In this document: positions 8,933-39,890 of the stretch, piece by piece
Numbering within the stretch: position 1 is the stretch's first letter
Layout: the number at the start of each line of letters is the position of its first letter
Origin: Escherichia coli phage AZ21
Length of the DNA stretch: 64,000 nucleotides
Direction: 5' to 3' (one strand)
Sequence record: LC788708.1
Notes under the pieces: model-generated
Told to the model about the DNA's origin: nothing
Databases searched by the model: none
The model's input: the letters and a program-made list of their open reading frames with translations, nothing else
Made by a program: the position numbers and the translations under genes

Positions 8933-8951
8933 AATTAAATAAGGACAACTA

Positions 8952-9140: not shown

Positions 9141-9148
9141 GAGACTAT

Positions 9149-26649: not shown

Positions 26650-27539
26650 TGGGATTTTATAGTAATAGAAAACCAAAAGGTGTAACTGGTAAATTCGCAG
26701 TTGAAGAAAGACCTTTTCCACCGGTCGATGTAGAGAAACTACGTGAACTTCTAGAAATGCTAGAAGGTTGCCATGAACGTTGTTATTCTGAACTCTCTTT
26801 AAATGAGAAACGTGTTGTTGAGATGTTCTGTATTCGTTCAGCTAGAACAGCTAAAGGTACTTCTCCAAAAGATGAAGTAAAAGAGTACAGAGTTCTAGTG
26901 ATGCATGCTTGGGCACAACGTTTTGCAGTTCATTCGCTTCAGGAATGGTTTAATCTTCCAGCCTATAAAGATTTTCATGTTTACGAAGATGAGGTTATGA
27001 ATTATAATGAGTTGTATGGTTTGTCCTTCAAAAAGACAGGCTCACCGATGCATGATGCACTCAATTCATTCCCTGATCATTACCTTCCAGTTCGTGAATA
27101 TAGAGATCGTGAAGGAAATAAACCCTGCTTCACTATTTGGAATAAGTCTAAGACGATATCTGATCTAGATAATTATTGGTTTCGCACAAAAGAAGGATTC
27201 CTAGGAACAGAACCTTTACCTAAGGATCTCAAACCTATCCTTCCGCCTGCGAAACCTAAACATGAAGTAACGATTGCTATTAATAGAATAATTCTAGGAG
27301 CAGATGATCTTACTAAACAAATCGCCGCAGTTATCGCAGTTCTGTTTGACGGTACAAATTCTTCTGCACGTTATGAGAAGCTAACGGATAACAAATTGCA
27401 GATACCTAACGAGTTGTATGAGAGTTCGTGCAAGATCTATGATAACTTTAGTAAAGTAGATTACCCCGTGAGATCCATTAAAGAACTCATGGAGTATGCG
27501 GAGATGGGGATGAAAGGAAATCTCATGTTCGATGAATAA
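26649..27539 (+). CDS. hypothetical protein
   Basis: 296 aa ORF, last gene before the repeat-rich gap. Confidence 0.5.
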   Translation: MGFYSNRKPKGVTGKFAVEERPFPPVDVEKLRELLEMLEGCHERCYSELSLNEKRVVEMFCIRSARTAKGTSPKDEVKEYRVLVMHAWAQRFAVHSLQEWFNLPAYKDFHVYEDEVMNYNELYGLSFKKTGSPMHDALNSFPDHYLPVREYRDREGNKPCFTIWNKSKTISDLDNYWFRTKEGFLGTEPLPKDLKPILPPAKPKHEVTIAINRIILGADDLTKQIAAVIAVLFDGTNSSARYEKLTDNKLQIPNELYESSCKIYDNFSKVDYPVRSIKELMEYAEMGMKGNLMFDE

Positions 27540-27546
27540 ACTCTAC

Positions 27547-27575
27547 TTGACGTTATGATTTCTGCATGTTATAAT
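27547..27575 (+). promoter_or_regulatory. sigma70 promoter firing into the non-coding repeat region
   Basis: TTGACG-17-TATAAT with no ORF downstream for about 1.8 kb. Confidence 0.55.
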
Positions 27576-27903
27576 AACTCTATGAAATAACATAGAATAA
27601 AGAGATCCACCCGGATACGGATGGTGGATGGGAAACTTCTATTTCCCCCGTAGCTTGTCGGAGGGCTAGGGAAATCTTAAGAAGTTTTGTACCATCTCAC
27701 GCAATTCGTATCCCAGGGGTGGAGCATCTCTTCCAATCTTTGGGGATCTTATACTTAAATTAAAGGTAAAACTTTTGGTCACATAATTTACATTCAAGAT
27801 GATACACTGGTTGCCGCCATTCTTCCTAGGATGGCACAACACTTTCTTCTAGACTCCTAAGTTTCTAGGAATACTAACTCTAGAGTTTACACTAAACTTT
27901 GAA

Positions 27904-28641
27904 TCGGATTCGCACATGCTCTAGGGCAGTTTTTCATCTACTATAAATATCCTAGGCCGGTTTTCCTATACAGGGCGGTTATGGGGAGGGCGGTTATTTC
28001 TAGACAATAAAATTTACTCTTGTCAGTCCAGAAATTACTGTCGGATTTGCACATTGTGTTTCTAGAAATTTATGGTCGGATTTGCACAATTGCCTAAGTT
28101 TTTAGGAACATATAATCTCCTGAAAATGGCAGCATTATTTCGGGCCGAAGGCCCATGATTGCCTGAGTTTTTTTAGAGACACAGAAATTTTCACTTGTCA
28201 AGCTATTTTGCCCCATTTTGCTAATAAAATTTTACTTTATCTCCCCTAATCTCAAATTAACCCAAATCTTCTCAACTCTTCTCCAAAATCCCCGCAAATC
28301 AGGTGCTCCGCACCAAACATGCGCCCCTCCCGTAGTTCCCCCAAGTTTCTCTCGATCTCTCAACTTCTCCCCAAACTCATACAATCACACACCCTCCAAT
28401 CGAAGTCACAAAAATCTTGTCGGATTCGCACAAATAAACCCATGTCGGATTTGCACATATTCTAGTTAATTCCACAGGATTGATGCGCAGCATCGGATTG
28501 CTGGAGTTTTTGGGAGAATTCATTGTCGGATTCGCACACTATAAAAATTTTTCGGGTCGGATTTGCACACTACCAAAAATTGTCGGATTCGCACATACAC
28601 GCCCACGCGTAATCCATGGGGGCAAATGTCGGATTTGCACA
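27904..28641 (+). repeat. array of 9 direct copies of GTCGGAT(T/C)(T/C)GCACA
   Basis: Copies at about 27904, 28040, 28075, 28419, 28444, 28525, 28557, 28582, 28628, same orientation, irregular spacing, non-coding. Confidence 0.8.
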
Positions 28642-28647
28642 AAAGCG

Positions 28648-28663
28648 CAGGGCAATTGCCCTG
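28648..28663. repeat. perfect 16-bp palindrome CAGGGCAATTGCCCTG
   Basis: Exact reverse-complement symmetry. Confidence 0.8.
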
Positions 28664-28705
28664 CTTGCCTGAATGCGAATGATAATGAGAATCATTTGCA
28701 TTTAA

Positions 28706-28858
28706 AAAGCGGAATGAGAATGATAATAATTCGCATTTAAGAATGGAAGTGAGAATTATTCAGGAAGTGAAACGATTCTCATTTAAAAAGTGAAACGATT
28801 CTCATTTAGAAAGTGAAACGCGAATGATAATGATTCGTATTTAAGAATGGAAGTGAGA
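28706..28858 (+). repeat. two about 42-bp direct repeats flanking a 23-bp tandem repeat
   Basis: ATGATAAT.ATTCG.ATTTAAGAATGGAAGTGAGAA at about 28706 and 28817; GTGAAACGATTCTCATTTA(A/G)AAA x2.5 at 28767-28822. Confidence 0.75.
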
Positions 28859-28874
28859 AACACTATTATTTAAG

Positions 28875-28964
28875 TTATCCACAGACTTATCAACAGCACG
28901 ATTTGACTTGACAGAATCCTAGCCATTTTGAGGCGTTATCAACAGACTTATCAACAGCTTATCC
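28875..28964. promoter_or_regulatory. DnaA-box cluster
   Basis: TTATCCACA at 28875-28883 plus three TTATCAACA variants within 90 bp. Confidence 0.55.
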
Positions 28965-28984
28965 TACTGTATAAATATACAGTA
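28965..28984. promoter_or_regulatory. LexA (SOS) box, near-consensus
   Basis: TACTGTATAAATATACAGTA, i.e. CTGT-N8(AT-rich)-ACAG, one spacer difference from the E. coli consensus. Confidence 0.6.
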
Positions 28985-29177
28985 TTCCTATGCAGTGAAT
29001 AATTCTAATATACAGCTAAAACGCTCTCAAACGCATTCTAACGCGTTTAATTTTGGTGGGGATACTAAAACAAGGGCAAAATTGGAGGAGGCTTGAAAAT
29101 TAGTTAGCTCGCTAATGATCACACACGGCGACACGTAACACCCTAACCATTAGCAGGCTAACCATCGCGGGCGTGGT

Positions 29178-29200
29178 CAAATGAGAATGATTCTCATTTG
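29178..29200. repeat. perfect inverted repeat CAAATGAGAAT-G-ATTCTCATTTG
   Basis: 11-bp arms around a single central base. Confidence 0.8.
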
Positions 29201-29350
29201 TGGATTGGGGGCGCTTCCTGATAGTTGCGCCCCGTGATTATTATAGTAGGGGGCAACCGTTACGCTTTGCCCACTCCCGCCACTCATCTTGGTGCCTAGA
29301 CTTGCGACGGCGTACTAAAAACCGCTTGTACCAGTGATTAAACCATCGTT

Positions 29351-29554
29351 TCATAAATCCTCCTCCGGTAGTCGATGCGTGATCTTTTCCTCCTCCCCAT
29401 AGGAATCCACCAAATACTGATAATAACCATCGTGATCATAAATCACTTTATCATATTCCCCACGCTCGACCGCTTGCCGATTTTCCAACGTATCAGGCAC
29501 AAAGAAAGTATCAACGGTAACAGTAGTTTTAGTTACAACAATTTTATCACTCAT
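29351..29554 (-). CDS. hypothetical small acidic protein
   Basis: 67 aa; last gene of tightly packed minus-strand operon; start overlaps upstream tiny ORF. Confidence 0.45.
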   Translation of the reverse strand: MSDKIVVTKTTVTVDTFFVPDTLENRQAVERGEYDKVIYDHDGYYQYLVDSYGEEEKITHRLPEEDL

Positions 29555-29680
29555 AATGCCATCGCCCCTAGAATGAGAATGATTATCAATATCATTGTGA
29601 AGCCATTACCAAATCGTAAACGCTGGGAATGTTTCCCAGCGGTATTATTAGACTTATGGCTTTGTGTTTTTCGCCACCAG

Positions 29681-29881
29681 CTATTCACGGTAGACGCTCC
29701 ATCCGTCTAGCTTCCATTCTTCCCCCTTGCGAATATTGAAAAACCAATCATTAAAATTGTAACCATCTTCTGACATGATCACGCCGTTTTCTTTCATGTA
29801 CAAAAATTCATCACTAGTAAAATATTGATTACTAACTTTAAAACCTTGTTTCATTTTTTCTAGTGCTTCATCTTTAGTCAT
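29681..29881 (-). CDS. hypothetical small acidic protein
   Basis: 66 aa; ATGA-type overlap with upstream gene. Confidence 0.45.
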   Translation of the reverse strand: MTKDEALEKMKQGFKVSNQYFTSDEFLYMKENGVIMSEDGYNFNDWFFNIRKGEEWKLDGWSVYRE

Positions 29882-30222
29882 TGCGCCACCTTTCGAAACG
29901 CTGTTTCAATACTATCCGCAGTGGATTGAATATATGCGCCTTTGAGTATCAGCCGCTCGGTGCATATCTTGCGAAAAATATTAATAAAATCGTCCTCATT
30001 TTCTGCGATTAATGCCTCACCCATAACCTGAACGTCGCAAGATGCAAAGGTCAAAAATTGAAACGCTAGTTCACGGGCAACGACCGCATTGATTTTATAA
30101 TGCGCCTTGCCTTCATAGATATTAATAACGCCCTTATAAGCTGGCGAAAGCTGATTTAAGTAGTTTGCTAATAATGCCGGACGGCAATTAGCAACAAAAC
30201 GATTGCCCTCATAAATAACCAT
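29878..30222 (-). CDS. hypothetical protein
   Basis: 114 aa, minus-strand operon member. Confidence 0.5.
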   Translation of the reverse strand: MVIYEGNRFVANCRPALLANYLNQLSPAYKGVINIYEGKAHYKINAVVARELAFQFLTFASCDVQVMGEALIAENEDDFINIFRKICTERLILKGAYIQSTADSIETAFRKVAQ

Positions 30223-30349
30223 TTGATAGTCTCCCGATTAGATAGCCAGATAATAACATAAAGATCCCCAATAAAAGAGGATCATTCTTAAATAAGGTGG
30301 CGGTAAAACCGCCAACCATTGCAAGGAGAATAACAATAATGCTTTTCAT
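30209..30349 (-). CDS. small membrane protein (46 aa)
   Basis: MKSIIVILLAMVGGFTATLF hydrophobic ORF; ATG overlaps stop of upstream gene (ATGA) and its stop overlaps next start. Confidence 0.3.
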   Translation of the reverse strand: MKSIIVILLAMVGGFTATLFKNDPLLLGIFMLLSGYLIGRLSNGYL

Positions 30350-30558
30350 AGTACCCCACGAAACGCAGCGTAAAAGGTGGCAAAGTGTTTAACTGTTTCA
30401 GCAATCACGTTGCCGCGCTTATCAAATTTCTTTTCTGTAACACGAAAGGCATTTTTATTACGTGCTACATATTCGATTTTACAATCTTCCCGCTCGAACG
30501 TGTTAACATCCACCAGCTTAAAGCCTTTCGAACGTGCAAGAGAAACGTTGCGGATCAT
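30346..30558 (-). CDS. hypothetical basic protein
   Basis: 70 aa ORF in minus operon. Confidence 0.45.
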   Translation of the reverse strand: MIRNVSLARSKGFKLVDVNTFEREDCKIEYVARNKNAFRVTEKKFDKRGNVIAETVKHFATFYAAFRGVL

Positions 30559-30560
30559 TT

Positions 30561-30743
30561 TTATTCCCCTTTACTAGTCATGCAGCCCAGCAGATAAGAA
30601 AATACAGCGATGCCAGCACCAATAGTAACCATTGGTTTTATATTTACTAAACCGCAATAGGAATCCTGAATACCATAAGCGGTGGCGAAAAGAGTCAAAA
30701 TAGCGCCCAAGATACCCGCTAAAATAGCTCGAAAAATAACCAT
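30561..30743 (-). CDS. small membrane protein
   Basis: 60 aa with two hydrophobic helices; preceded by GGGGCG-loop-CGCCCC hairpin. Confidence 0.45.
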   Translation of the reverse strand: MVIFRAILAGILGAILTLFATAYGIQDSYCGLVNIKPMVTIGAGIAVFSYLLGCMTSKGE

Positions 30744-30792
30744 TTGTAATACTCCTCTAGTTAGTGGGGCGAAAGTAACGCCCCGTTATTAA

Positions 30793-31023
30793 TTACATTA
30801 AAATAATTTTTGCCGCTTGTTTTTTGGTACAGTGTTCCGCTTTCAGGGTGTCCAGCAAAAAGCCCGCCGTTTGCTGATCGATTTTATCGGCATTATATAG
30901 TTCTTGGATGGTGTTATAAGTTTTAGCAATGCCGTATTCTTGTACCATTTCTTGAATAATCCAGCGATTTGATACCCAGCCTTTACCAGTGAAAAGAGCG
31001 TCAGAAGAAGAGTAAGCAACCAT
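30793..31023 (-). CDS. hypothetical protein
   Basis: 76 aa from ATG with RBS GGAGGCTTAAAATG (minus strand); longer track ORF lacks RBS. Confidence 0.45.
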   Translation of the reverse strand: MVAYSSSDALFTGKGWVSNRWIIQEMVQEYGIAKTYNTIQELYNADKIDQQTAGFLLDTLKAEHCTKKQAAKIILM

Positions 31024-31086
31024 TTTAAGCCTCCAAATTTTTGGGAAAATTTTCAACCGTCCTCAAACGGTGTAAAGGCATTATAA

Positions 31087-31115
31087 CAAAAAAGGCCGCC
31101 ATAAAAGGCGACCTT
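31087..31115 (-). terminator. rho-independent terminator (minus strand)
   Basis: AGGTCGCC-loop-GGCGGCCT hairpin followed by TTTTTT on minus strand, right after the stop of 31130-31624. Confidence 0.5.
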
Positions 31116-31129
31116 TACAAAACTTTACA

Positions 31130-31624
31130 TTAAACTACTTGTAAGGATTCAATATTGAAACATCGTTTCAGTTCGTCATGCAAAACGGCATATTCATCCC
31201 ATCGGGTACTATCAGGAATATAAACAAGCTGTTTTAATCGGTTTGCATATATTACCGCTTTGTTATCAATTATCTCGACGCCACCATATTTAATAATTAA
31301 TTTCATGACGGAATTAATAGGATCGCCGCCGTTTACATATGCGCCGGATTTACTTAATTGATAATGATAAAGGCTTGCATATACGTTTTCATTTTCATAC
31401 CATTCGCCAGTCTCTTCGTCTTCATAGCCATCGCTACCAAAACGAGAAGCATTATCAACAGCCATTTCATGAGCAAAAGCGTCCAGATCCGTACCAGCAG
31501 GAACAAAATATTCCTCGGTATTCCCTTCCCCGCAATAGCCAGTATGACAATCGACTAAAATGATCATATCATGTTTAGCCTTGCTCACTTCCCCTAGCGA
31601 GAAGCCGTATTTTTCTTCTAACAT
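31130..31624 (-). CDS. hypothetical acidic protein
   Basis: 164 aa from ATG with RBS GGAGAC; acidic run DGYEDEETGEWYENENVY. Confidence 0.5.
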   Translation of the reverse strand: MLEEKYGFSLGEVSKAKHDMIILVDCHTGYCGEGNTEEYFVPAGTDLDAFAHEMAVDNASRFGSDGYEDEETGEWYENENVYASLYHYQLSKSGAYVNGGDPINSVMKLIIKYGGVEIIDNKAVIYANRLKQLVYIPDSTRWDEYAVLHDELKRCFNIESLQVV

Positions 31625-31688
31625 AATTAGTCTCCTATTAATTAACAAGGAAATAGTAAAGCGGGGAAATAATCCCCGCTAGATATTA

Positions 31689-31922
31689 TTACTCGTTTTC
31701 GGTGTTAGTGGTAAAAGTAGAGATATCGATACCTTTTACCATTTCATCGATCATCTCAGCGATGTTAAAACTTTGCACCATTTCTAACATTGCCGCTTCC
31801 ATAGCCGCCCCTGCTACCGCTTTCGCTTTCTGATTAGTCGGGGCGTACTGGTCAACCGCTACACTCAGCAGGTTAGCGATCACTACACGACCAATCGGCG
31901 TATCAATATAGCCTTTGATCAT
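31689..31922 (-). CDS. hypothetical protein, possibly C-terminal part of a frameshifted gene
   Basis: 77 aa ORF overlapping end of 31903-32694 by 20 nt; reachable by +1 shift at an A7 run. Confidence 0.4.
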   Translation of the reverse strand: MIKGYIDTPIGRVVIANLLSVAVDQYAPTNQKAKAVAGAAMEAAMLEMVQSFNIAEMIDEMVKGIDISTFTTNTENE

Positions 31923-32694
31923 AAACGGTGCTTTTTTTAGCCGCTACTTTCGTGATTTGAGTTAGTGCAATTTTACCAGCTTCCAGTTTTGCAGCGTTTA
32001 CAACAGCGGATTTATTAGCGGCAACGATATTAGCGATCTTGGTCATGGTATTTTTTCCTTTGTTTTCAGTAGTTTGAGTATTAACGCTTTGAGTGTTAGA
32101 GCTTACAACCTGTTTTTCAATATTGTCAACTGGTTTTAGTGTAAATCCAGCATTTGCAACGTTTGATTCATTCCCATACTCTAAATAATCACTAGGGATC
32201 AACATGTTGCCACTAGCGCGTTCAAAACATAACACGCCAGTTGTAGAAATTACATTACTATCAGCACTTTTGTAATTAGCTGATAGTTCACGCCAAATGC
32301 TAGTTAATAACGATCCGACACTATCAGTCCTGATATTACTTACTTTTGTTGCTGTTACTTGCTCTTTTTCTTGCACGTTATATAATCGCGCAATGTAACC
32401 ACTATTAGATTCACTATAACCAACAATGATAAAATCAATATCTCTTCCACGTTGATTGCGGAAAATGTGATAATCACGGTTGAAAATTACTAGCGCCCTT
32501 TTCTGGTCTAGTAATTGTGTGAAATCTTCAACTGAATAATGAGTACCCTCATCGTCTAAAATTCTATCATGAATCTTTTCGATAATAGTAGCGGTATGCT
32601 GTACGCTTGCCGCGCTACTACCCTCTAACAGATTGCGCAAACTGCCTTTAATAATAGTGGCGTTTGCTGGTACTGCAATTCTTACAGTAGACAT
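31903..32694 (-). CDS. hypothetical protein (first gene of minus-strand operon)
   Basis: 263 aa ORF, Ser/Thr/Asn-rich middle, Ala/Lys-rich C-terminus; ends just after A7 homopolymer. Confidence 0.5.
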   Translation of the reverse strand: MSTVRIAVPANATIIKGSLRNLLEGSSAASVQHTATIIEKIHDRILDDEGTHYSVEDFTQLLDQKRALVIFNRDYHIFRNQRGRDIDFIIVGYSESNSGYIARLYNVQEKEQVTATKVSNIRTDSVGSLLTSIWRELSANYKSADSNVISTTGVLCFERASGNMLIPSDYLEYGNESNVANAGFTLKPVDNIEKQVVSSNTQSVNTQTTENKGKNTMTKIANIVAANKSAVVNAAKLEAGKIALTQITKVAAKKSTVYDQRLY

Positions 32695-32960
32695 TTTATT
32701 TTGTCTCCCTCGTTAATCGGTGAGTGAATGATAAGGGTAATTTTCTAGCATAGGCAAATATTATTTTACTTTTTTATTTTCCTTGCCTAGCGTCTAATTT
32801 TATGCTAACCGCGCAGCGGTGCAATAAAGAGCAAACCACGGCGAAGCCACCAGCCCGACGCATTGAGGCTTTACTTTAATATTACCTTACAGCGTTTAGC
32901 TCGTTAGAATGCGTTTTGGGCCACTTAAAATTGATTGCAGTTGTTAACACTACCTTTCTA

Positions 32961-32980
32961 CCCTGTATATTTATACAGTG
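32961..32980. promoter_or_regulatory. LexA (SOS) box
   Basis: CCCTGTATATTTATACAGTG with perfect CTGT-N8-ACAG core, about 270 bp upstream of the first minus-strand gene. Confidence 0.55.
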
Positions 32981-32988
32981 GAATAACC

Positions 32989-33397
32989 TGTGGATAAGTC
33001 TGTGCAAAAGTCCTTATATCACCGCCTATCGTGTCAAGTTATTTTGTGCTGTGGAAAACATTGTGGATAACTTAAATGATAGTGCTTCTCACTTAGGCTA
33101 ATGATTTCTTATAGTTATTATTTCTCATTAATTTATAAGTATATTATATATTATCAAATAGTTAGTTGGCTAATGAGATTTTCCGTGATTAATAGTCTGC
33201 TAATAATTCAGGTCGTTACAATCCACCAGCATGATTATCATTCTAGCAATTATTAGTCTGCTATCTTTCCGATACATACTAACAAATAAAAGTCAATTAA
33301 TTTATTTCATAAAATAAGTAGTTATCCACTGGAAAATAAAAGTCAAGTGGATAACTAGGAAAATTTCATTTTTGCTTTTGGGGATAAGTTATCAACA
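32989..33397. promoter_or_regulatory. DnaA-box cluster
   Basis: TGTGGATAA at 32989 and 33062, TTATCCAC at 33322, GTGGATAA at 33347, TTATCAACA at 33389. Confidence 0.55.
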
Positions 33398-33799
33398 AGG
33401 CTAGAATGCGCCTAAAACGCTCCAGAACGCGATGAAGTTTTTAGCCACCCCATCATAAGGGGATAGGCCGTTTATCGCTGCCACGAGCTTTTTAGATTTT
33501 GTCAAGTAGGGGAAAGCAAATATAAATGAAAAAATTACTTGCCTATTTGCTTTATTTTGTGGTATTCGCGCCCGTTTCTTTTAATTTTAGGCCGTCGCCG
33601 GACGTGGTGCGGTGAATTTTGTCTTTACGTTTCTTTACAAAAATAAGGTTGCGCCATTTTCGGGAATCCCCTATTATTTATCACGTAGGGCGGCAATGAC
33701 GAACTACACGGCGGGAAGTTTACCGCCACGCTCTTTAAAAATTGGGTACATCTTAAAGCCTATCGGCGGTAAACTTATTTATTATAAGGAATCGACGAT

Positions 33800-34012
33800 A
33801 TGAAACAAACTTTATTGATCACTGGCAAGCCTATTAAGGCACTAGATAGCAAAACAAAAAATTTGTTGACAGTAGCGCAAAGATCGGTAAAATACCGATT
33901 CACGCAGTACAAGAAAGACCGCCAGCAAGGTTTAGAAATGATCTGGCGAAACATTATGATTGACTTGAAAGAAAATCATAAAAAACTGCAAAAAAATTAT
34001 TTGACAACCTAG
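33800..34012 (+). CDS. hypothetical ORF (doubtful)
   Basis: 70 aa ORF but contains internal TTGACA-17-TAAAAT promoter-like sites; may be non-coding. Confidence 0.2.
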   Translation: MKQTLLITGKPIKALDSKTKNLLTVAQRSVKYRFTQYKKDRQQGLEMIWRNIMIDLKENHKKLQKNYLTT

Positions 34013-34233
34013 CCGATAGGTTTTAAGATGTACCCAGTTCGATAAGAGCGATAACTTGATAAAATTTGACGGTCGGTGCTTACCATAATGCGCCCCGCCC
34101 CCTAACGGGATATAGCGGCCTACGTGGAGTTCTTTAAATTGATTATAGCGGCGAGAGGATTGTTACTTATTACCTGCTAGTATTTTCTAGTAGGTAATAA
34201 GTAACAATCCATCAAATAACTGGAGTTTATATT

Positions 34234-34485
34234 ATGCAAAACGTTATTACCGCGCCTAAAATTGGTCAATCCGTCTTTATTCCTTTCGTTACTAAAACGG
34301 ATGAATTAACCGGAAAGGCCGAACGTATTAAAGGTGCGGCGCTTATGCCGTTCGATACAATCGACGCGGTATATGCTGAAAATGAACGCAGTAACAACGG
34401 CAAGCCCGTTTTTAGCGTTCGCGTTAAATCCGGCGATGTTGTAAAGGTTGTTCAACGCAACGAAAAATGGGAAGCTGTGTTGTAA
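34234..34485 (+). CDS. pre-early hypothetical protein
   Basis: 83 aa, RBS AACTGGAGTTTATATTATG; followed by perfect 9-bp hairpin. Confidence 0.5.
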   Translation: MQNVITAPKIGQSVFIPFVTKTDELTGKAERIKGAALMPFDTIDAVYAENERSNNGKPVFSVRVKSGDVVKVVQRNEKWEAVL

Positions 34486-34583
34486 TTTAGTGTTAACTTT
34501 ATATCCCCCTTATTTCAGGGGGATATAACGATTAACATTAAGTTAATCTAATCCCTTAAATTAAACTAATAGGAGTTTTTACC

Positions 34584-34991
34584 ATGACTAACGCAAAAAC
34601 CGCAAAATTCGCATGGAATGAAGAAAACACTCAGAAAGCTGTTACCATGTACCAGCAGTTAATCAACGAAAACGGTTTAGATTTTGCAAATAGCGACGGC
34701 CTGAAAGAGATTGCAAAAGCAGTAGGCGCGGCCTCCCCCGTATCCGTTCGGTCAAAATTGACCAGTGCAAAAGCCTATCAAAAAAGCGATAAGCCGCGTA
34801 AAGTTGGCGGCGGTAGCTCTGTGCGTAAAGCTCACTATGTGCGAGTAATTGCAAAACACGCTATCGATTCCGGTATTATCAAAGACGCCGATGATCTGGC
34901 AAGCCTTGAAAGTGCTAAACTGGAAACGCTGGACGCGGTGGCGCAACTGTTAGGCGTTGCCGATGAAGTAAAACAAGCCGTAGGTGAATAA
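34584..34991 (+). CDS. pre-early hypothetical protein
   Basis: 135 aa, RBS AGGAG; followed by GCCCCCT-loop-AGGGGGC hairpin. Confidence 0.5.
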   Translation: MTNAKTAKFAWNEENTQKAVTMYQQLINENGLDFANSDGLKEIAKAVGAASPVSVRSKLTSAKAYQKSDKPRKVGGGSSVRKAHYVRVIAKHAIDSGIIKDADDLASLESAKLETLDAVAQLLGVADEVKQAVGE

Positions 34992-35081
34992 TAGTTATAC
35001 CTTGCCCCCTTCTAGTGAGGGGGCACTAATATAACTGTTTAGCGATAGTTATTTTCTTCCCTTAAATCAGGAGTTTTAAAA

Positions 35082-35279
35082 ATGGTTTTCTTCCCTACTG
35101 AATCTTTGATTCTAGGCTTGTTTATTATGGCGGCCTCATTATTGTTCGCTTATTTTCAGAATGATTTAGATTCGTATTATTTTAAACGTAAATCTAAATT
35201 AGCAAAACGTTTGGGCTTGCTTTGTTTTATCGCTGCCGTTGCCTGTGGTGTTAGTTCGAGTCTAGTACCATTAAATTAA
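35082..35279 (+). CDS. small membrane protein
   Basis: 65 aa with two hydrophobic helices; RBS AGGAG. Confidence 0.4.
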   Translation: MVFFPTESLILGLFIMAASLLFAYFQNDLDSYYFKRKSKLAKRLGLLCFIAAVACGVSSSLVPLN

Positions 35280-35366
35280 TGTTGCAAATTATAACGCCTA
35301 TTATTCGAGGCGTTATATTTGGCAATATTGCCATTATTAACCTAATCCCTTTAATGGAGTTTTATT

Positions 35367-37037
35367 ATGATTATTTCCGCAGAAAAACAAACCGTTATCC
35401 TGAAAATGGCCGCTGATTTCAATTTCTACGGTAAACGCCTGCGCGCCACTAAACTGGAGGTCTGCGACGATATTTCAAAAGCGGTCTACGATACAACGAA
35501 ACACTCCACCGCTATCTGCGACTGGCTGGAAGCAAATAAACCAGCGAAACCAAAAGCGGCAAAAGTAGCAAAAGCCATTAAAAACGGTGAGCGCCCCGAA
35601 GCGGCTGGGATTGTTTCTAGTACCGTGGAGCAGTGGGAAGTAAAACAAGGTAAACGCTTTATTATTACATCGATTCAGAATAATACTTTCCCGCATAAAA
35701 ACTTTTTAGCCTCACTGGAGCAATTTGCTAAATATATCGGGGCTGATTTGCTCGTTTCTAAGTATATTTATAATAAAAACGGTTTTCAAAATGGGGAAGG
35801 TGCTGACGGAATCAAATATGATTCCGCGTTTGATAAATATATTTGCAGCAAAAACGTGTTTTTGAATAACCGCCGCTTTGCTTTCATGGCTGAAATTAAT
35901 GTTTTGCCTACCGCAGATTATCCGCTTTCTGGATTCGCAGAAACTGCAACGGCTTTAAATATTGAAGGTCTGGCAATTGGTCACGCTAAAATTACCGCTG
36001 AAAGCGTACCAGCTTTAAAAGGTGAAGTAGTGCGCCGTATGTACTCAACCGGAACGGCAACGCTCAAAAACTACATTCAGCAGAAAGCAGGACAAAAGGC
36101 CGAGGCGCTGCATAACTTCGGTGCGCTTATTGTTGAGTTCGACGAGGACGGGGAATTTTTTGTACGCCAGCTTGAAACGATGGACGAAAGCGGGGTATTT
36201 TATGATCTGAATGTGTGTGCTACTCCTGCCGGATGCTATGAAACATCGGGGCATGTTTTAGGCTTGCAGTATGGCGATATTCACGCCGAAAAATTAGATG
36301 AGGAGTGCGCCGCCGCGTCATGGGGGCATGGTGATACTTATGGGCTAGTAGATATTCTTAAACCAAAATATCAGTTTGTGCATGACGTGCATGATTTTAC
36401 ATCGCGCAATCATCATAACCGCGCATCGGGTGTATTCCTAGCAAAACAGTACGCCGCCGGACGTGATAAGGTTATTGATGATCTTATCGATACGGGGCGC
36501 GTGCTGGAATCAATGGAGCGTGATTTTTCTCAAACAATCATTGTTGAATCGAATCACGATTTGGCGTTATCCCGTTGGCTTGATGATCGTAATGCTAACA
36601 TCAAAGACGATCCAGCAAACGCAGAACTGTATCACCGCCTGAATGCTGCAATTTACGAGGCAATCGGTGAACATGACGAAACGTTCAACGTGCTAGATTA
36701 TGCGCTGCGCAAGGTTGCAGGTTGTGAGTTTAACGCCATTTTCCTGACCACTGACCAATCTTTCAAGATTGCAGGCATTGAATGCGGCGTACACGGTCAC
36801 AACGGCATTAATGGCAGTCGTGGCAATCCCAAACAATTTAAGAAATTGGGCAAGTTAAACACTGGTCATACTCATACGGCAAGCATTTACGGCGGGGTAT
36901 ATACCGCTGGCGTAGCTGGTAGTCTGGATATGGGTTACAACGTTGGCGCGTCAAGCTGGACGCAAACTCATTTAATTACCTATGCAAACGGTCAGCGCAC
37001 TTTGATTGACTTTAAGAACGGTAAATTTTTTGCGTAA
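35367..37037 (+). CDS. A1: A1-like pre-early protein, calcineurin-like metallophosphatase (Mre11/SbcD-type nuclease fold)
   Basis: 556 aa (size of the T5 A1 product as I recall it); GDIH, ESNHD, HGHNG, GHTHT metallophosphatase motifs in order; sits with dmp-like gene. Confidence 0.7.
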   Translation: MIISAEKQTVILKMAADFNFYGKRLRATKLEVCDDISKAVYDTTKHSTAICDWLEANKPAKPKAAKVAKAIKNGERPEAAGIVSSTVEQWEVKQGKRFIITSIQNNTFPHKNFLASLEQFAKYIGADLLVSKYIYNKNGFQNGEGADGIKYDSAFDKYICSKNVFLNNRRFAFMAEINVLPTADYPLSGFAETATALNIEGLAIGHAKITAESVPALKGEVVRRMYSTGTATLKNYIQQKAGQKAEALHNFGALIVEFDEDGEFFVRQLETMDESGVFYDLNVCATPAGCYETSGHVLGLQYGDIHAEKLDEECAAASWGHGDTYGLVDILKPKYQFVHDVHDFTSRNHHNRASGVFLAKQYAAGRDKVIDDLIDTGRVLESMERDFSQTIIVESNHDLALSRWLDDRNANIKDDPANAELYHRLNAAIYEAIGEHDETFNVLDYALRKVAGCEFNAIFLTTDQSFKIAGIECGVHGHNGINGSRGNPKQFKKLGKLNTGHTHTASIYGGVYTAGVAGSLDMGYNVGASSWTQTHLITYANGQRTLIDFKNGKFFA

Positions 37038-37093
37038 TTAAATTATTTCCCTAGCGGCTTGAAATACAGCCGCTATTACAGGAGCTAAATTAA

Positions 37094-37372
37094 ATGGCTA
37101 TTAAAATTAATCTTCCCAATATTAAAAACACCGCTGATATATGGTCGATTGATACTATATTGCGTGGCACTGTATACCGTAATTTAAAAGATAATAATTG
37201 TTATATTTATCAAAATGAATTAAACGGCCATATTTACATAATCGAGTCCGATGGTTTTTGTTCTTTTGAGACTGATTATGAAGCGCAAGATCATATACAG
37301 GCAAATGATATTCCTGACGTATGGAAAGAAACAAACCTTGCTTTTGTTGTAAGTCTTGAAGCTAACAAATAA
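37094..37372 (+). CDS. pre-early hypothetical protein
   Basis: 92 aa ORF downstream of A1-like gene, RBS AGGAGCTAAATTAAATG. Confidence 0.45.
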   Translation: MAIKINLPNIKNTADIWSIDTILRGTVYRNLKDNNCYIYQNELNGHIYIIESDGFCSFETDYEAQDHIQANDIPDVWKETNLAFVVSLEANK

Positions 37373-37410
37373 ATTAAATATCTTATTAAATTAATTGGAG
37401 TTTTACAAAT

Positions 37411-37803
37411 ATGAAAAAGCAAAATATTCCATTCGATCGCGCTCAGTCTTCTATTGTTCTGGTTTATTCTAATGGTGAGCGTTACCACGTCGAGGCGGGG
37501 CACGTTATTGATGAATTATTAGATTTCAATGACGCTTTACAGGTTACTACCTTTGCCTACACGCAAGGCCGCGCAAGTAGTTACATTAAGGCCGCAGGCG
37601 TTTATGTTGACACGGTGAAACAAGAAACGATTATCATCGACGCAGTAAAATCCGGTCTAGCCTTTGCAGTTGTCGCGCCTTGCCCCTCTTGTCTTGATGA
37701 TCAGCTAACGAGTGCGAAAGTATACACCTGCGCGGGCATTCGTTCCCATGTATCAGGAGAGGATATTAGTTTTATCGCTGATGCGTTGGCTTATGGTCTT
37801 TAA
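37411..37803 (+). CDS. pre-early hypothetical protein (possible A2 equivalent)
   Basis: 130 aa ORF downstream of A1-like gene; assignment by position only. Confidence 0.4.
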   Translation: MKKQNIPFDRAQSSIVLVYSNGERYHVEAGHVIDELLDFNDALQVTTFAYTQGRASSYIKAAGVYVDTVKQETIIIDAVKSGLAFAVVAPCPSCLDDQLTSAKVYTCAGIRSHVSGEDISFIADALAYGL

Positions 37804-37883
37804 TAGTTGATTTATTATTGCCCGCTGATAGATAGCGGGCAATGCTGGATAAACTACATCCCTTTAATGGAGAACGTAACAAA

Positions 37884-38618
37884 ATGAATCAAGTTAAAAC
37901 GAATATTTCCCGTAACTTCCCGCATATTTCCCGCGTCATGATCTGGGATCTTGATGGCACTATCGTTAATTCATTCCATCGTGTAGCGCCTTGCTTTGAT
38001 AGTGAGGGTAATCTAGATTTAAATAAGTATAAGAATGAGGCTTGCAAACATGATTTAATAATGCAGGATACTTTATTGCCTTTGGTGGAATATATGCGCC
38101 AATGCATGAATGACGCAAATACTTTAAACATTATTTGTACCGCTCGATTAATGAGCAAATCGGATTATTATTATTTGCGCAAACAAGGCTTGCGAGGGCG
38201 TGGGGATAGCAATATCCGCGTGTTTTCCCGCGACACGCTGCATAAATATTTTGAAGCTGATAAGGTTAGCGAGATATACCACAGTAAAGACGCAGTTTAT
38301 AAATCGTATTACTTTGAATTATTTAAACAGCTATATCCGAACGCTGATTTCACAATGATTGATGATCATAAAGGTGTATTATCAGCGGCGGCGTCATACG
38401 GATTTAAAACGCTAGACGCGCAAGCCGTTAACGATATTCTATCAATCGGCGTGGCATTGATAGGCGGAACCTTTATTGATGAATCTCTCGATGATGATAA
38501 TGATTATCAGTTCCTAGCCGATCGATTGAAATTATGTTGGGAAAGTATGACCGAAGAAGAACGCGCAGAATATAGTTGCAGCCCGCAACAATATATTGAG
38601 AAATTAAAAGTTGCGTAA
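37884..38618 (+). CDS. dmp: HAD-family 5'-deoxyribonucleotidase (dmp-like)
   Basis: VMIWDLDGTIVNS (HAD motif I DxDGT); RBS GGAGAACGTAACAAAATG; pre-early context. Confidence 0.65.
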   Translation: MNQVKTNISRNFPHISRVMIWDLDGTIVNSFHRVAPCFDSEGNLDLNKYKNEACKHDLIMQDTLLPLVEYMRQCMNDANTLNIICTARLMSKSDYYYLRKQGLRGRGDSNIRVFSRDTLHKYFEADKVSEIYHSKDAVYKSYYFELFKQLYPNADFTMIDDHKGVLSAAASYGFKTLDAQAVNDILSIGVALIGGTFIDESLDDDNDYQFLADRLKLCWESMTEEERAEYSCSPQQYIEKLKVA

Positions 38619-38782: not shown

Positions 38783-39028
38783 TTAGCGCATAGAAGGGTC
38801 ATCAAACCTGTGCTCTGGTCTGAACTCACGGAATCTCTTCCACGACGCCCGAGATCCATCAGACCACTCCCGCTCAAACTCCGCACGTTTCTCGTCAAAC
38901 TTCCGCTCCCTTTCCGCAATCTCTCGCGTCACCCCCGCGATATATTCCCGATGCTTGTTAATTGCCGCAGTTGTCCCGAAAACTCCCGCGAGTATCCCGA
39001 TAATAAAAGCAATTACAATACTAAACAT
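38783..39028 (-). CDS. small membrane protein
   Basis: 81 aa, N-terminal TM helix then charged tail. Confidence 0.4.
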   Translation of the reverse strand: MFSIVIAFIIGILAGVFGTTAAINKHREYIAGVTREIAERERKFDEKRAEFEREWSDGSRASWKRFREFRPEHRFDDPSMR

Positions 39029-39215
39029 CTAATTCCCTCTCAATTTGCAGAATACGGGTACTATCACAACGTTGCAGTAGTGCTAGCTTTTCTAGAGTAA
39101 CTTGTTGTTGTTTTACCTGAGCTTCTAGAGTTTTTAGGCGGAGATACACGATACGAGAGACAATGAGGATTACCCAGACTAATATTACCATTAGTGTAAT
39201 TGCCGCTTCCATCAT
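39021..39215 (-). CDS. small membrane protein
   Basis: 64 aa, TM helix then coiled coil. Confidence 0.4.
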   Translation of the reverse strand: MMEAAITLMVILVWVILIVSRIVYLRLKTLEAQVKQQQVTLEKLALLQRCDSTRILQIERELDV

Positions 39216-39318
39216 TTACGTTTCTCCAATAATAAGGTTTCAATTCTAGCTAAATGATTATCTAAAATACATTGTCCAATAATCACAATCCCTAGTAGTG
39301 CAATAATTACCCATTCCA

Positions 39319-39510
39319 TTAAATCCACCCCGCCATAGCTGCTAACCAAAAACCTACGAAGATTAGGAATAATACAAAACCAAATCCGTAAATATTAATC
39401 CACGCTTCATATACTTCTCCGCGTCTGTTCTTTCTTTTATTTGACATATCTTTCATGCTCCAATAAATGTGGTATCTGGAATATTTTACAGTTTGTGCAC
39501 AACCAACCAT
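39319..39510 (-). CDS. small membrane protein
   Basis: 63 aa, C-terminal TM helix. Confidence 0.4.
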   Translation of the reverse strand: MVGCAQTVKYSRYHIYWSMKDMSNKRKNRRGEVYEAWINIYGFGFVLFLIFVGFWLAAMAGWI

Positions 39511-39623
39511 GCTTGTGACTTCCTAGAAGGACTTCTCATTTTCTTGCATAGTGGTTTCTGCCAATATACCATCCAAAAAATAAAAAATTTAGTTTACTTG
39601 GATGTCGTTTTGCTTTATACTAA

Positions 39624-39890
39624 TTACAGGTAGTTAGATTGCTCTAGTTTAAATTTACAATCACCGTATTTAAGATCAAACTGACTGAGATCCCACCACC
39701 CAAACTTAGTACGGAGCTGTACTACTGGGAAGCGATCTCCCTTAATACGAACTTTTTGAACTTTGAGGCCATAATGTTCTTCTCCTGCACCTCCAAAAGA
39801 TTTTACAAATCCCGTACAAAATGGTTTGGGAGCAGGTGCACAACCAGATAACATAACTGCGGCAACTAGTGCAATCACAAACTTTTTCAT
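39624..39890 (-). CDS. llp: lipoprotein, Llp-like superinfection-exclusion (receptor-blocking) candidate
   Basis: 88 aa; signal peptide with lipobox LSGC; divergently placed immediately upstream of receptor-binding protein gene as in T5. Confidence 0.6.
   Translation of the reverse strand: MKKFVIALVAAVMLSGCAPAPKPFCTGFVKSFGGAGEEHYGLKVQKVRIKGDRFPVVQLRTKFGWWDLSQFDLKYGDCKFKLEQSNYL

What the first reader, a model, noticed from the sequence alone, without database searches (positions are those of the whole stretch)
29351..32694. Compact minus-strand operon of about 10 unrecognisable small genes inside the pre-early region, bracketed by LexA/DnaA-box clusters
This is my best candidate for an undescribed system. 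It is the only sizeable block transcribed opposite to everything around it. The genes are packed with ATGA and stop/start overlaps, so they are likely co-translated. None of the products shows a motif I can assign: several are strongly acidic (e.g. DGYEDEETGEWYENENVY in 31130-31624), and two are tiny membrane proteins. In T5-type phages the first DNA to enter the cell carries host-takeover and anti-restriction functions, so these are plausible DNA-mimic or anti-defence effectors. The block also sits between two near-consensus LexA boxes and clusters of DnaA boxes, suggesting host-factor-dependent regulation.
Basis: partly seen in the sequence, partly recalled or inferred. Interest (0 to 1): 0.8.

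Follow-up and report, generated by a model that had tools for sequence, protein, structure and literature searches.

The report
Known T5-type pre-early accessory operon
This block is the already described opposite-strand set of small "pre-early" genes (T5 genes 011-017) that T5-like phages express from the first DNA to enter the cell; it is not an undescribed system, though one gene has the fold of a known anti-immunity sponge and the flanking repeats carry an invariant SOS-box-like site.

The parts
32963..33094 (.). Right arm of the ~132-nt inverted repeat (Davison's IRC-spacer-IRD, 'Repeat Region 2'). It holds a LexA-like box at 32963-32978 and two DnaA-box pairs at 32989-33009 and 33050-33070.
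   Evidence: The two arms are 83% complementary. Boxes. Conservation across phages. Description in the literature.
32728..32757 (-). Sigma-70 promoter of the block (TTGCCT, 18-nt spacer, TATCAT) with an A/T-rich upstream stretch. It is the orthologue of the promoter annotated upstream of T5.011.
   Evidence: Promoter scan. Near-identity to T5 6411-6489, annotated as a promoter. The promoter upstream of 011 is stated to be experimentally characterised.
31903..32694 (-). g1: the N-terminal 263 aa of a DUF7566 / T5.011-type protein, the first part of a split gene.
   Evidence: Pfam PF24450, profile positions 1-257 of 336, E 1e-84. 82% identical to EPS7 AGC_0007 and 48% to T5.011. T5 011 is toxic and perturbs the nucleoid.
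31932..31938 (-). A7 homopolymer run where T5 and EPS7 have A6. This +1 insertion splits the 011 orthologue.
   Evidence: DNA alignment. AZ23 is the only one of 123 records at 99% identity or more over this 81-nt stretch, and every other listed record aligns over 80 nt.
31689..31922 (-). g2: the C-terminal 77 aa of the same DUF7566 / T5.011 protein, read in the shifted frame.
   Evidence: Pfam PF24450, profile positions 260-336. 96% identical to the C-terminus of T5.011.
31130..31624 (-). g3: acidic 164-aa protein (net charge -16, pI 4.5). It is a cassette shared with EPS7-type phages and absent from T5.
   Evidence: phrog_6741. 80% identical to EPS7 AGC_0009, with no T5 hit. Homologues found only as 17 clusters; the named members are T5-like Salmonella/Escherichia phages. 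AF2 model pLDDT 88, with no PDB fold match (TM 0.23 or less).
31091..31116 (-). Intrinsic terminator (10-bp stem followed by a T-run), orthologous to the terminator annotated after T5.011. A TGTTATAAT extended -10 element follows at 31080-31088.
   Evidence: Terminator scan. The intergenic region aligns almost perfectly with T5 7517-7623, which contains the annotated terminator. The extended -10 element was read by eye and is an inference.
30793..31023 (-). g4: orthologue of T5.012 (76 aa).
   Evidence: 91% identity; phrog_5145.
30561..30743 (-). g5: orthologue of T5.013, a 60-aa membrane protein with two TM segments.
   Evidence: 93% identity. Two hydrophobic segments. T5 013 is toxic and lytic when expressed alone.
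30346..30558 (-). g6: 70-aa basic protein, identical to T5.014. RefSeq and PHROG label this family as the Ung-dependent AP endonuclease.
   Evidence: 100% identity. phrog_4227. The conflicting source names appear.
30209..30349 (-). g6b: 46-aa ORF with two TM segments. It is not annotated in AZ23 and is absent from T5.
   Evidence: phrog_19184, E 2e-28. ATGA overlap with g6 and a 14-nt overlap with g7.
29878..30222 (-). g7: orthologue of T5.015 (114 aa). By locus tag and by UniProt naming this is the Ung-dependent AP-site nickase.
   Evidence: 92% identity. UniRef name 'DNA-(apurinic or apyrimidinic site) endonuclease'. Function described in Mahata 2021 and Annor 2026.
29681..29881 (-). g8: 66-aa protein with the Tad2/AcrIIA7 (DUF2829-like) fold. 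It is a cassette shared with EPS7-type phages, and T5 has the unrelated T5.016 in this slot.
29351..29554 (-). g9: orthologue of T5.017 (67 aa, acidic, net charge -9).
   Evidence: 82% identity; phrog_6973; charge.
28851..28982 (.). Left arm of the inverted repeat (Davison's IRD'-spacer-IRC', part of the injection stop signal region). It holds DnaA-box pairs at 28875-28895 and 28936-28956 and a LexA-like box at 28967-28982; with its flanks (28965-28984) this reads TACTGTATAAATATACAGTA.
   Evidence: Conservation. Literature. T5 annotates iss at the matching position.
27895..28641 (+). Nine copies of a GTCGGATT(T/C)GCACA-containing direct repeat. These match the nine 'DRD' repeats of the T5 iss / Repeat Region 3.
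   Evidence: Repeat family D1. Davison lists nine DRD copies.

Best explanation
The block is the second, divergently oriented pre-early gene set of the first-step-transfer (terminal-repeat) DNA of a T5-like phage. It is orthologous to T5 genes 011-017.

Shown here:
- Six T5 genes have orthologues of 48-100% identity (011, 012, 013, 014, 015, 017); 011 is represented by two ORFs, g1 and g2.
- The block lies between the two arms of the conserved inverted repeat of the FST DNA.
- It faces away from the hdi-007-A2-A1-dmp operon.
- It starts at a sigma-70 promoter nearly identical to the one annotated upstream of T5.011.

Inferred mechanism: host RNA polymerase transcribes the block as soon as the first ~8% of the genome has entered. 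The 011 orthologue and g3 are read up to a T5-type intrinsic terminator. g4-g9 are read by read-through or from an extended -10 element just after that terminator. The genes from g5 to g8 (g5, g6, g6b, g7, g8) are probably translationally coupled.

The products act as separate, individually dispensable host-takeover or counter-defence proteins, not as parts of one machine:
- 011: a toxic protein that perturbs the nucleoid. In AZ23 it is broken by a +1 frameshift.
- 013: a toxic two-TM protein.
- 015: an Ung-dependent AP-site nickase.
- g8: a Tad2/AcrIIA7-fold protein, which I infer is an anti-defence factor. It may be a small-molecule immune-signal sponge.
- g3, 012, 014, g6b and 017: no assignable activity.

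Gene content is mosaic. Cassettes such as g3, g6b and g8 are exchanged between T5-like lineages, probably by recombination within the conserved flanks. The flanking DnaA-pair and LexA-like modules are cis elements of the FST DNA itself (the iss and inverted-repeat structure). They are not operators of this operon.
For: Identity and orthology:
- The block is 100% identical to AZ23, and similar DNA occurs in 440 phage records, almost all from Salmonella and Escherichia phages.
- The left operon (009, hdi, 007, A2, 005, A1, 003, 002, dmp) lies on the + strand at 33696-38618.

Cis elements:
- The promoter is conserved with T5, and so is the internal terminator.
- The inverted-repeat arms and nine DRD repeats match Davison's description.

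Literature:
- The T5 region 6209-9194 is 'highly divergent... transcribed from the opposite strand'.
- 011 and 015 are toxic, and 015 is an Ung-dependent nickase.
- 011, 013 and 015 are toxic, and a hegG-017 deletion mutant is viable.

Mosaic content:
- A presence/absence matrix over 15 loci shows variable gene content.
- Vibrio phage PG07 has the same architecture with eight unrelated small genes, and Klebsiella phage B01 has only three.

g8:
- Its family is spread over 442 phage records from many virulent enterobacterial phage groups, all annotated as hypothetical, and over 584 representative clusters.
Against: - There are no expression data for AZ23 itself. The transcription units are inferred from sequence and from T5.
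- Most products still have no demonstrated function, so 'independent accessory proteins' rests on mosaicism and on T5 genetics.
- The anti-defence reading of g8 rests on fold alone:
  - The Pfam score is below threshold.
  - A broad family profile loses the PDB Tad2 hit.
  - hhalign probability to SPO1 Tad2 is only 10%.
  - The beta2-beta3 loop with helix alpha2, which Tad2 uses to dimerise, is missing. Only the aromatic at the W25 position aligns in the N-terminal half that could be aligned, and the C-terminal pocket residues could not be mapped.
- Public sources disagree on whether the nickase is the 70-aa or the 114-aa protein.
Confidence: 0.9

Rival explanations
1. The block is a single, previously undescribed multi-gene anti-defence or DNA-mimic system whose roughly ten co-translated products work together.
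For: Central genes overlap or nearly abut (ATGA at two junctions). Several products are acidic. The block lies in the first DNA to enter the cell. One product has an anti-defence fold.
Against: - The block is orthologous to the published T5 genes 011-017.
- Its composition differs gene by gene between close relatives, and is entirely different in Vibrio and Klebsiella relatives.
- A conserved terminator splits it.
- The known functions are unrelated to one another: a nickase, a membrane toxin and a nucleoid-perturbing protein.
- There are no PADLOC, Pfam Ocr or ArdA hits, and the acidic g3 matches no PDB fold.
- The acidic loop of g3 is replaced by a Cys-rich insertion in some homologues.
Confidence: 0.04
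2. The operon is controlled by the host factors LexA and DnaA. The flanking boxes act as operators, so that expression responds to the SOS or replication state of the host.
For: - The box with its flanks, TACTGTATAAATATACAGTA, matches 19 of 20 positions of the E. coli SOS-box consensus TACTG(TA)5CAGTA. The consensus is taken from my own knowledge.
- The CTGTAT...TA.ACAG core is invariant in all 10 aligned arms from E. coli, Salmonella, Klebsiella and Vibrio phages.
- Paired DnaA boxes lie next to it.
Against: - The upstream box is centred ~240 bp from the -10 element of the block's promoter, and the other lies ~370 bp beyond the last stop codon.
- The arms are conserved whatever genes lie between them. 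Davison reports phages that keep only the iss arm.
- The modules sit in the region assigned to the injection stop signal.
- T5 pre-early promoters are strong constitutive sigma-70 promoters. This point is from my own knowledge.
Confidence: 0.08
3. The segment between the two inverted-repeat arms is a mobile or invertible cassette, and the repeats serve as its recombination sites.
For: ~132-nt inverted repeats flank a ~4-kb segment whose gene content varies. The arms are more widely conserved (536 records) than the genes between them (440 records).
Against: - In all five homology-selected loci examined (AZ23, EPS7, T5, Vibrio PG07, Klebsiella B01), the small-gene block next to the iss arm (L005 6261-6684 in B01) is oriented opposite to A1/A2 or the + strand operon, with no inverted isolate.
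- No recombinase or transposase gene is present.
- Ordinary homologous recombination in the conserved flanks is enough to explain the mosaicism.
Confidence: 0.05

Closest known systems
Bacteriophage T5 pre-early genes 011-017 (the right-hand transcription unit of the FST / terminal-repeat DNA, NC_005859 6495-9157)
   Same: It occupies the same position between the two inverted-repeat regions and has the same divergent orientation relative to A1/A2. The promoter and the internal terminator are the same. Orthologues of 011, 012, 013, 014, 015 and 017 are present at 48-100% identity.
   Different: AZ23 lacks T5.016 and carries three ORFs absent from T5: g3 (164 aa), g6b (46 aa) and the Tad2-fold g8 (66 aa). 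g3 and g8 are shared with EPS7-type phages (80% and 100%); g6b has only a partial match there (52% over 25 aa). The 011 orthologue is frameshifted, and there is no hegG homing endonuclease next to the block.
Tad2 (Thoeris anti-defence 2) / AcrIIA7, Pfam PF11195 'Tad2-like' (DUF2829)
   Different: g8 is 66 aa against 86-104 aa for the solved relatives. The Pfam score is below the gathering cut-off. It lacks the beta2-beta3 loop and helix alpha2 that Tad2 uses to dimerise. The ligand-contact residues N26 is not conserved in g8; the C-terminal contacts W73 and D79 could not be mapped. No ligand or oligomer data exist.
T5 injection stop signal region and the IRC-spacer-IRD / IRD'-spacer-IRC' inverted repeats with paired DnaA boxes (Davison, bioRxiv 10.1101/866236)
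   Same: The two bracketing 'box clusters' are these arms. Each arm has two DnaA-box pairs 3 bp apart, the nine DRD repeats lie beyond the left arm, and the repeats flank the variable coding region.
   Different: That paper never mentions LexA or SOS. The invariant LexA-box-like palindrome next to the inner DnaA pair of each arm appears not to have been pointed out in the literature I could search.
Early accessory or host-takeover gene clusters of other virulent phages, such as T7 class I genes and T4 immediate-early ORFs (comparison from my own knowledge)
   Same: These are also small, mostly dispensable genes of variable content. They are expressed first by the host RNA polymerase, and mix host-shutoff toxins with anti-defence proteins.
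   Different: Here the cluster sits in a terminal repeat that enters the cell as a separate first step. It is also framed by conserved inverted repeats carrying host-protein binding motifs.

Membership tests
T5-type pre-early right-hand gene block (T5 011-017) | Lies in the terminal-repeat / FST DNA between the two inverted-repeat regions, next to the iss | tested here: met
   Inverted-repeat arms at 28851-28982 and 32963-33094, with the DRD repeats at 27895-28641. T5 annotates iss at the matching place.
T5-type pre-early right-hand gene block (T5 011-017) | Orthology of the encoded proteins to T5.011-T5.017 | tested here: met
   Six of the seven T5 genes have orthologues (011, 012, 013, 014, 015, 017) at 48-100% identity; 016 is absent.
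T5-type pre-early right-hand gene block (T5 011-017) | Divergent orientation relative to the hdi-A2-A1-dmp operon, with the conserved promoter upstream of 011 | tested here: met
   The left operon is on the + strand at 33696-38618. The promoter is near-identical to the annotated T5 promoter.
T5-type pre-early right-hand gene block (T5 011-017) | Transcribed before second-step transfer (pre-early kinetics) | not testable with these tools
   This needs RNA-seq or labelling in the first minutes of infection. It is known for T5 only from the literature.
Tad2 / DUF2829 (PF11195) immune-signal sponge, for g8 | Sequence match to the Pfam model above the gathering threshold | tested here: not met
   17.8 bits against a cut-off of 25. 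Only 19 of 90 family members hit PF11195 at E < 0.01. hhalign probability is 10%.
Tad2 / DUF2829 (PF11195) immune-signal sponge, for g8 | Tad2 fold (helix alpha1 plus an antiparallel beta-sheet) | tested here: met
Tad2 / DUF2829 (PF11195) immune-signal sponge, for g8 | Ligand-pocket residues (SPO1 Tad2 W25, N26, W73, D79 and others) | tested here: inconclusive
   Only the N-terminal half aligns. An aromatic (Y20 or F21) sits at the W25 position and N26 is not kept. The C-terminal contacts could not be mapped without a structural alignment printout.
Tad2 / DUF2829 (PF11195) immune-signal sponge, for g8 | Homotetramer built from V-shaped dimers through helix alpha2 and strand beta2 | tested here: inconclusive
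   The model has only a 5-residue loop where Tad2 has the beta2-beta3 loop and alpha2.
Tad2 / DUF2829 (PF11195) immune-signal sponge, for g8 | Binds and sequesters gcADPR, His-ADPR or cyclic nucleotides, and rescues phage from Thoeris, Pycsar or CBASS | not testable with these tools
   This needs biochemistry and plating assays.
LexA (SOS)-regulated operon | Sequence match to the E. coli SOS box | tested here: met
   TACTGTATAAATATACAGTA at 28965-28984 and CTGTATATTTATACAG at 32963-32978. The core is invariant in 10 arms.
LexA (SOS)-regulated operon | The box overlaps or abuts the promoter it controls | tested here: not met
   The boxes lie ~240 bp upstream of the -10 element of the block's promoter and ~370 bp beyond the last gene.
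LexA (SOS)-regulated operon | LexA binding and SOS-dependent expression | not testable with these tools
   This needs EMSA or ChIP, and reporters in lexA mutants.
DNA-mimic anti-restriction proteins (Ocr, ArdA type), for g3 and g9 | Homology or fold match to a known DNA mimic | tested here: not met
   No Pfam, NCBIfam or PADLOC hit. No PDB sequence hit. The g3 model has no Foldseek match with TM above 0.23. g9 was not modelled.
DNA-mimic anti-restriction proteins (Ocr, ArdA type), for g3 and g9 | A conserved, strongly negative surface that imitates the DNA backbone | tested here: inconclusive
   Net charge is -16 over 164 aa for g3 and -9 over 67 aa for g9. The most acidic loop of g3 is not conserved, and three homologues have a Cys-rich insertion there instead.
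Ung-dependent AP-site nickase (Mahata et al. 'T5.015') | Orthology to the characterised T5 protein | tested here: met
   Both candidate proteins are present. g7 is 92% identical to locus tag T5.015 (114 aa), which UniProt names the AP endonuclease. g6 is 100% identical to T5.014 (70 aa), which RefSeq and PHROG label as the endonuclease. Which of the two is the enzyme is not settled by the accessible text.

The most novel reading that the evidence does not exclude
The invariant module found at both ends of the block consists of two DnaA boxes 3 bp apart, a TTATCC spacer and a near-consensus SOS box. On this reading it is a docking site where host LexA binds the incoming first-step-transfer DNA alongside DnaA. 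The SOS repressor would then be part of the nucleoprotein complex that halts, anchors or protects T5-type DNA during two-step injection. The variable genes framed by these sites, including the Tad2-fold g8, would be a pre-early counter-defence island.
Probability: 0.2. Interest if true: 0.65.

Novelty: already known. Interest (0 to 1): 0.3.

Why it matters
As first framed, the finding does not stand, because this block and its flanking repeats are a described feature of T5-like phages. Two by-products could still matter.

First, some T5-like phages natively carry a minimal Tad2/AcrIIA7-fold protein in the earliest-expressed DNA. T5 itself lacks it, and others have had to engineer a Tad2 gene beside A1 so that T5 could escape Pycsar. 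This offers a natural and easily tested anti-defence candidate. It also supports viewing the variable 011-017 slot as a counter-defence island.

Second, a near-consensus SOS box is conserved beside the DnaA-box pairs in both repeat arms of all eight phages examined, from E. coli to Vibrio hosts. This adds a concrete and testable host factor to the long-unsolved question of how T5 stops and restarts DNA injection.

Tried and rejected
- **DNA-mimic idea for the acidic g3.** Pfam, PADLOC, NCBIfam and PDB sequence searches found nothing. A confident AF2 model had no Foldseek match in the PDB. The acidic loop is not conserved. The idea is unsupported but not excluded.
- **Strengthening the g8-Tad2 link by sequence.**
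  - A 13-sequence profile kept SPO1 Tad2 as the top PDB hit, but only at E 0.06.
  - A 90-sequence profile lost it.
  - hhalign against SPO1 Tad2 gave 10% probability.
  - Only the fold comparison is strong.
- **Searches that returned nothing.** PADLOC on all ten products gave nothing. NCBIfam gave only noise. Rfam at E 0.1 or less over 27000-35000 found nothing. PDB sequence searches for g4, g6, g7, g9 and full-length 011 found nothing meaningful.
- **An SOS-triggered restart of injection.** I considered that A1-driven DNA damage might lead to LexA cleavage, release of the iss and then second-step transfer. I rejected this because T5 plates on recA1 cloning strains and A2 mutants degrade host DNA yet do not complete transfer.
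- **An invertible or mobile cassette.** I considered and rejected this because the orientation is constant in the five homology-selected loci and no recombinase is present.
- **Literature on LexA boxes in T5.** Searches found nothing.
- **Which protein is the Mahata nickase.** I could not settle from the accessible text whether it is the 70-aa or the 114-aa protein.

Full report
**Source and orientation.** Over bases 29351-32694 the window is 100% identical to Escherichia coli phage AZ23 (LC788707.1, Tequintavirus). Similar DNA occurs in 440 phage records, almost all from Salmonella and Escherichia phages. The window runs in reverse of the T5 convention. On its + strand, to the right of the block, lie the orthologues of T5.009, hdi (008), 007, A2, 005, A1, 003, 002 and dmp, at 33696-38618 and 82-98% identity.

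**Check of the observation.** The minus-strand ORFs are present at exactly the stated limits. Nine are annotated CDS in AZ23.
- Among ORFs of at least 90 aa this is the only internal minus-strand run in the window; the other is a single ORF at the right edge, 63641-63931. GC skew is negative across it.
- All genes start with ATG behind a Shine-Dalgarno-like motif.
- Overlaps exist only in the centre: g6/g6b share ATGA, g6b/g7 overlap by 14 nt, g7/g8 share ATGA, and g5/g6 are 2 nt apart. Elsewhere the gaps are 49-126 nt.
- Two products are strongly acidic, g3 (net -16) and g9 (net -9). Two are tiny two-TM proteins, g5 and the unannotated 46-aa g6b.

**The LexA and DnaA boxes.** Both LexA-type boxes are real. 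CTGT-N8-ACAG occurs three times in the window against 0.84 expected by chance. Two of the three have all-A/T spacers and sit at 28967-28982 and 32963-32978. Strict DnaA boxes are not enriched across the window (11 against 7.6 expected). However, five of the eleven fall within 264 nt flanking the block, and variant TTATCAACA boxes add to them.

**What the block is.** Gene-by-gene comparison with the annotated T5 and EPS7 records gives the following map:

| Window gene | Length | Counterpart |
|---|---|---|
| g1 + g2 | 263 + 77 aa | T5.011 |
| g3 | 164 aa | EPS7 AGC_0009 (80%); no T5 counterpart |
| g4 | 76 aa | T5.012 (91%) |
| g5 | 60 aa | T5.013 (93%, two TM) |
| g6 | 70 aa | T5.014 (100%) |
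| g6b | 46 aa | PHROG 19184; absent from T5 |
| g7 | 114 aa | T5.015 (92%) |
| g8 | 66 aa | EPS7 AGC_0014 (100%); T5 has the unrelated T5.016 in this slot |
| g9 | 67 aa | T5.017 (82%) |

- The promoter upstream of g1 (32728-32757) is almost base-for-base the promoter annotated upstream of T5.011. That promoter is described as experimentally characterised.
- The g3-g4 intergenic region is the T5 011-012 intergenic region, including its annotated rho-independent terminator (31091-31116). A TGTTATAAT element follows directly.
- g3 is therefore an insertion between 011 and its terminator. The 'operon' is more likely two units: 011 with g3, and then g4-g9.

**The flanks.** The two box clusters are the arms of a ~132-nt inverted repeat, at 28851-28982 and 32963-33094, 83% complementary.
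- Each arm has two pairs of DnaA boxes 3 bp apart. Nine 'DRD' repeats lie beyond the left arm at 27895-28641.
- The same paper already notes that the coding region between these repeats is 'highly divergent... transcribed from the opposite strand'.

**What is already known about the genes.**
- Mahata et al. cloned T5.011-T5.017 individually. They found 011 and 015 toxic, and showed that 015 binds Ung and nicks the abasic sites it creates.
- Annor et al. (2026 preprint) found 011, 013 and 015 toxic. 011 disorganises the nucleoid, 013 causes membrane damage and lysis, and 015 is the nickase.
- They also built a viable T5 mutant lacking hegG-017. They concluded that 011-017 are dispensable in the laboratory but might matter in hosts with defence systems.

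**Not one machine.** Gene content changes gene by gene among relatives. Vibrio phage PG07 keeps the architecture of iss arm, then eight small minus-strand genes, then a gap, then A2 and A1. None of those eight genes has an AZ23 homologue. Klebsiella phage B01 has three small genes in this position. The repeat arm is found in more records (536) than the genes are (440). I infer that the conserved flanks act as recombination anchors for cassette exchange.

**New detail 1: a split 011 gene.** g1 matches positions 1-257 of the DUF7566 model and g2 matches positions 260-336. AZ23 has A7 where T5 and EPS7 have A6. Of 123 records matching this stretch, AZ23 alone has the extra base. This is either a private loss-of-function mutation in a toxic gene or a homopolymer sequencing error.

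**New detail 2: g8 has the Tad2/AcrIIA7 fold.**
- Pfam gives a sub-threshold Tad2-like hit at 17.8 bits against a cut-off of 25.
- The best PDB sequence hit is SPO1 Tad2, at E 0.02.
- The AF2 model is confident, with pLDDT 93.9.
- Foldseek ranks three SPO1 Tad2 entries first, with probability 0.92-0.95 and TM 0.61-0.65.
- The family is large, with 584 representative clusters. It is scattered over 442 phage records, including rV5-like, T4-like Klebsiella, SUSP1-like and Erwinia phages, all annotated as 'hypothetical'.

There are caveats:
- Broader profiles lose the Tad2 signal.
- g8 is 20-40 residues shorter than the solved relatives.
- It lacks the beta2-beta3 loop and helix alpha2 that form the Tad2 dimer.
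- Only the aromatic at the W25 position aligns in the N-terminal half that could be aligned, and the C-terminal pocket residues could not be mapped.

I therefore file g8 as sharing the fold and probably a distant ancestry. An anti-defence role is plausible, and sponge activity is unproven. A recent study had to engineer MoTad2 next to A1 so that T5 could escape Pycsar. That shows such a protein is effective when expressed from this region.

**New detail 3: the acidic g3.** Its homologues form only 17 clusters, and the named members are T5-like Salmonella/Escherichia phages. The model is confident at pLDDT 88 but resembles nothing in the PDB, with TM 0.23 or less. In three homologues the DGYEDEETGEW stretch is replaced by a CPEC...DC insertion. 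The DNA-mimic idea gains no support.

**New detail 4: the LexA-like box.**
- With its flanks the left copy reads TACTGTATAAATATACAGTA. That matches 19 of 20 positions of the E. coli consensus TACTG(TA)5CAGTA, which I take from my own knowledge.
- Each copy lies 10 bp from the inner DnaA pair, at the end of the arm that faces the block.
- In an alignment of ten arms the core ACTGTAT..TA.ACAG is invariant. It is the best-conserved stretch of the arm. The ten arms come from AZ23, T5, EPS7, HK6, three Klebsiella phages and Vibrio PG07, and three of them were chosen without reference to the motif.
- The composite DnaA-DnaA-LexA pattern occurs in IMG/VR only on ~110-123-kb contigs (sizes typical of T5-like phages).
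- Davison's paper never mentions LexA or SOS, and two literature searches found no report.
- The boxes are badly placed to be operators of the block. One lies ~240 bp upstream of the -10 element and the other ~370 bp past the last stop codon. I read them as cis elements of the FST DNA.
- Whether LexA really binds them, and what it would do there, remains open.

**Annotation conflict.** RefSeq and PHROG 4227 attach 'endonuclease nicking abasic sites generated by host Ung' to the 70-aa T5.014 family. This protein is called ORF015 in another T5 record. UniProt attaches 'DNA-(apurinic or apyrimidinic site) endonuclease' to the 114-aa locus tag T5.015. Both papers use locus-tag numbering in which 013 is the two-TM protein. 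That points to the 114-aa protein, g7, but the accessible text does not settle the question. Both genes are present in the block.

**Verdict.** The central claim of an undescribed system regulated by LexA and DnaA is not supported. The block as a whole is already known. The Tad2-fold cassette and the invariant SOS-box module are modest new leads that can be tested.

Noticed in passing
window 31932-31938 (minus strand A-run), affecting ORFs 31903-32694 and 31689-31922: The T5.011/DUF7566 orthologue is split into 263-aa and 77-aa ORFs by one extra A (A7 against A6). AZ23 is the only one of 123 matching phage records with this extra base. It is either a private frameshift in a host-toxic gene or a homopolymer sequencing error.
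   Followed up: yes
window 30346-30558 (70 aa) and 29878-30222 (114 aa): Public annotation conflicts on the Ung-dependent AP-site nickase. RefSeq and PHROG 4227 label the 70-aa T5.014 family (called 'ORF015' in another T5 record). UniProt labels the 114-aa locus tag T5.015. One of the two labels has probably been propagated by an off-by-one error in numbering.
   Followed up: partly
window 28965-28984 and 32963-32978; also L003 6213 and 9411, L004 2242, L005 6123 and 9853, L017-L019: A near-consensus SOS (LexA) box sits beside the inner DnaA-box pair of each inverted-repeat arm. Its core is invariant in ten arms from eight phages of E. coli, Salmonella, Klebsiella and Vibrio. It is not mentioned in the Davison iss paper or in the literature I could search.
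   Followed up: partly
window 30209-30349 (minus strand): A 46-aa ORF with two TM segments matches PHROG 19184 (E 2e-28) and overlaps both neighbours. It is not annotated in the AZ23 record and is absent from T5.
   Followed up: partly
window 31080-31088 (minus strand): A TGTTATAAT element (extended -10 type) follows directly after the conserved terminator between g3 and g4, and is also present in T5. It may be an internal promoter for g4-g9.
   Followed up: no
alignment A4 (g3 homologues P0274, P0275, P0277); L005 8908-9276: Some homologues of the acidic g3 carry a CPEC...DC Cys-rich (zinc-ribbon-like) insertion in place of the acidic loop. In Klebsiella phage B01 the g3 homologue lies on the + strand (L005 8908-9276), opposite in orientation to the 3-gene block at L005 6261-6684, which suggests genes shuffle between the two pre-early units.
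   Followed up: no
window 38783-39890 (minus strand) and 39976-41733 (+): A second small minus-strand block holds four ORFs of 63-88 aa with membrane or signal sequences. One has a lipoprotein signal (MKKFVIALVAAVMLSGC). The block abuts a 585-aa ORF. From my own knowledge this looks like the T5 llp (receptor-blocking lipoprotein) and receptor-binding-protein arrangement.
   Followed up: no
window 33729-33767 / 34012-34050 and 34157-34210: A 39-nt inverted repeat (85% complementary) frames the hdi (T5.008) orthologue. A near-perfect 24+24-nt palindrome lies just upstream of the T5.007 orthologue. Both probably belong to Davison's Repeat Region 1.
   Followed up: no
whole window against LC788707.1: With the offset found for the block (record coordinate = window coordinate + 40147), window base 64000 would map to record position 104147. 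That is 72 nt beyond the 104075-bp record. The window therefore either wraps around the record or comes from a slightly different assembly.
   Followed up: no
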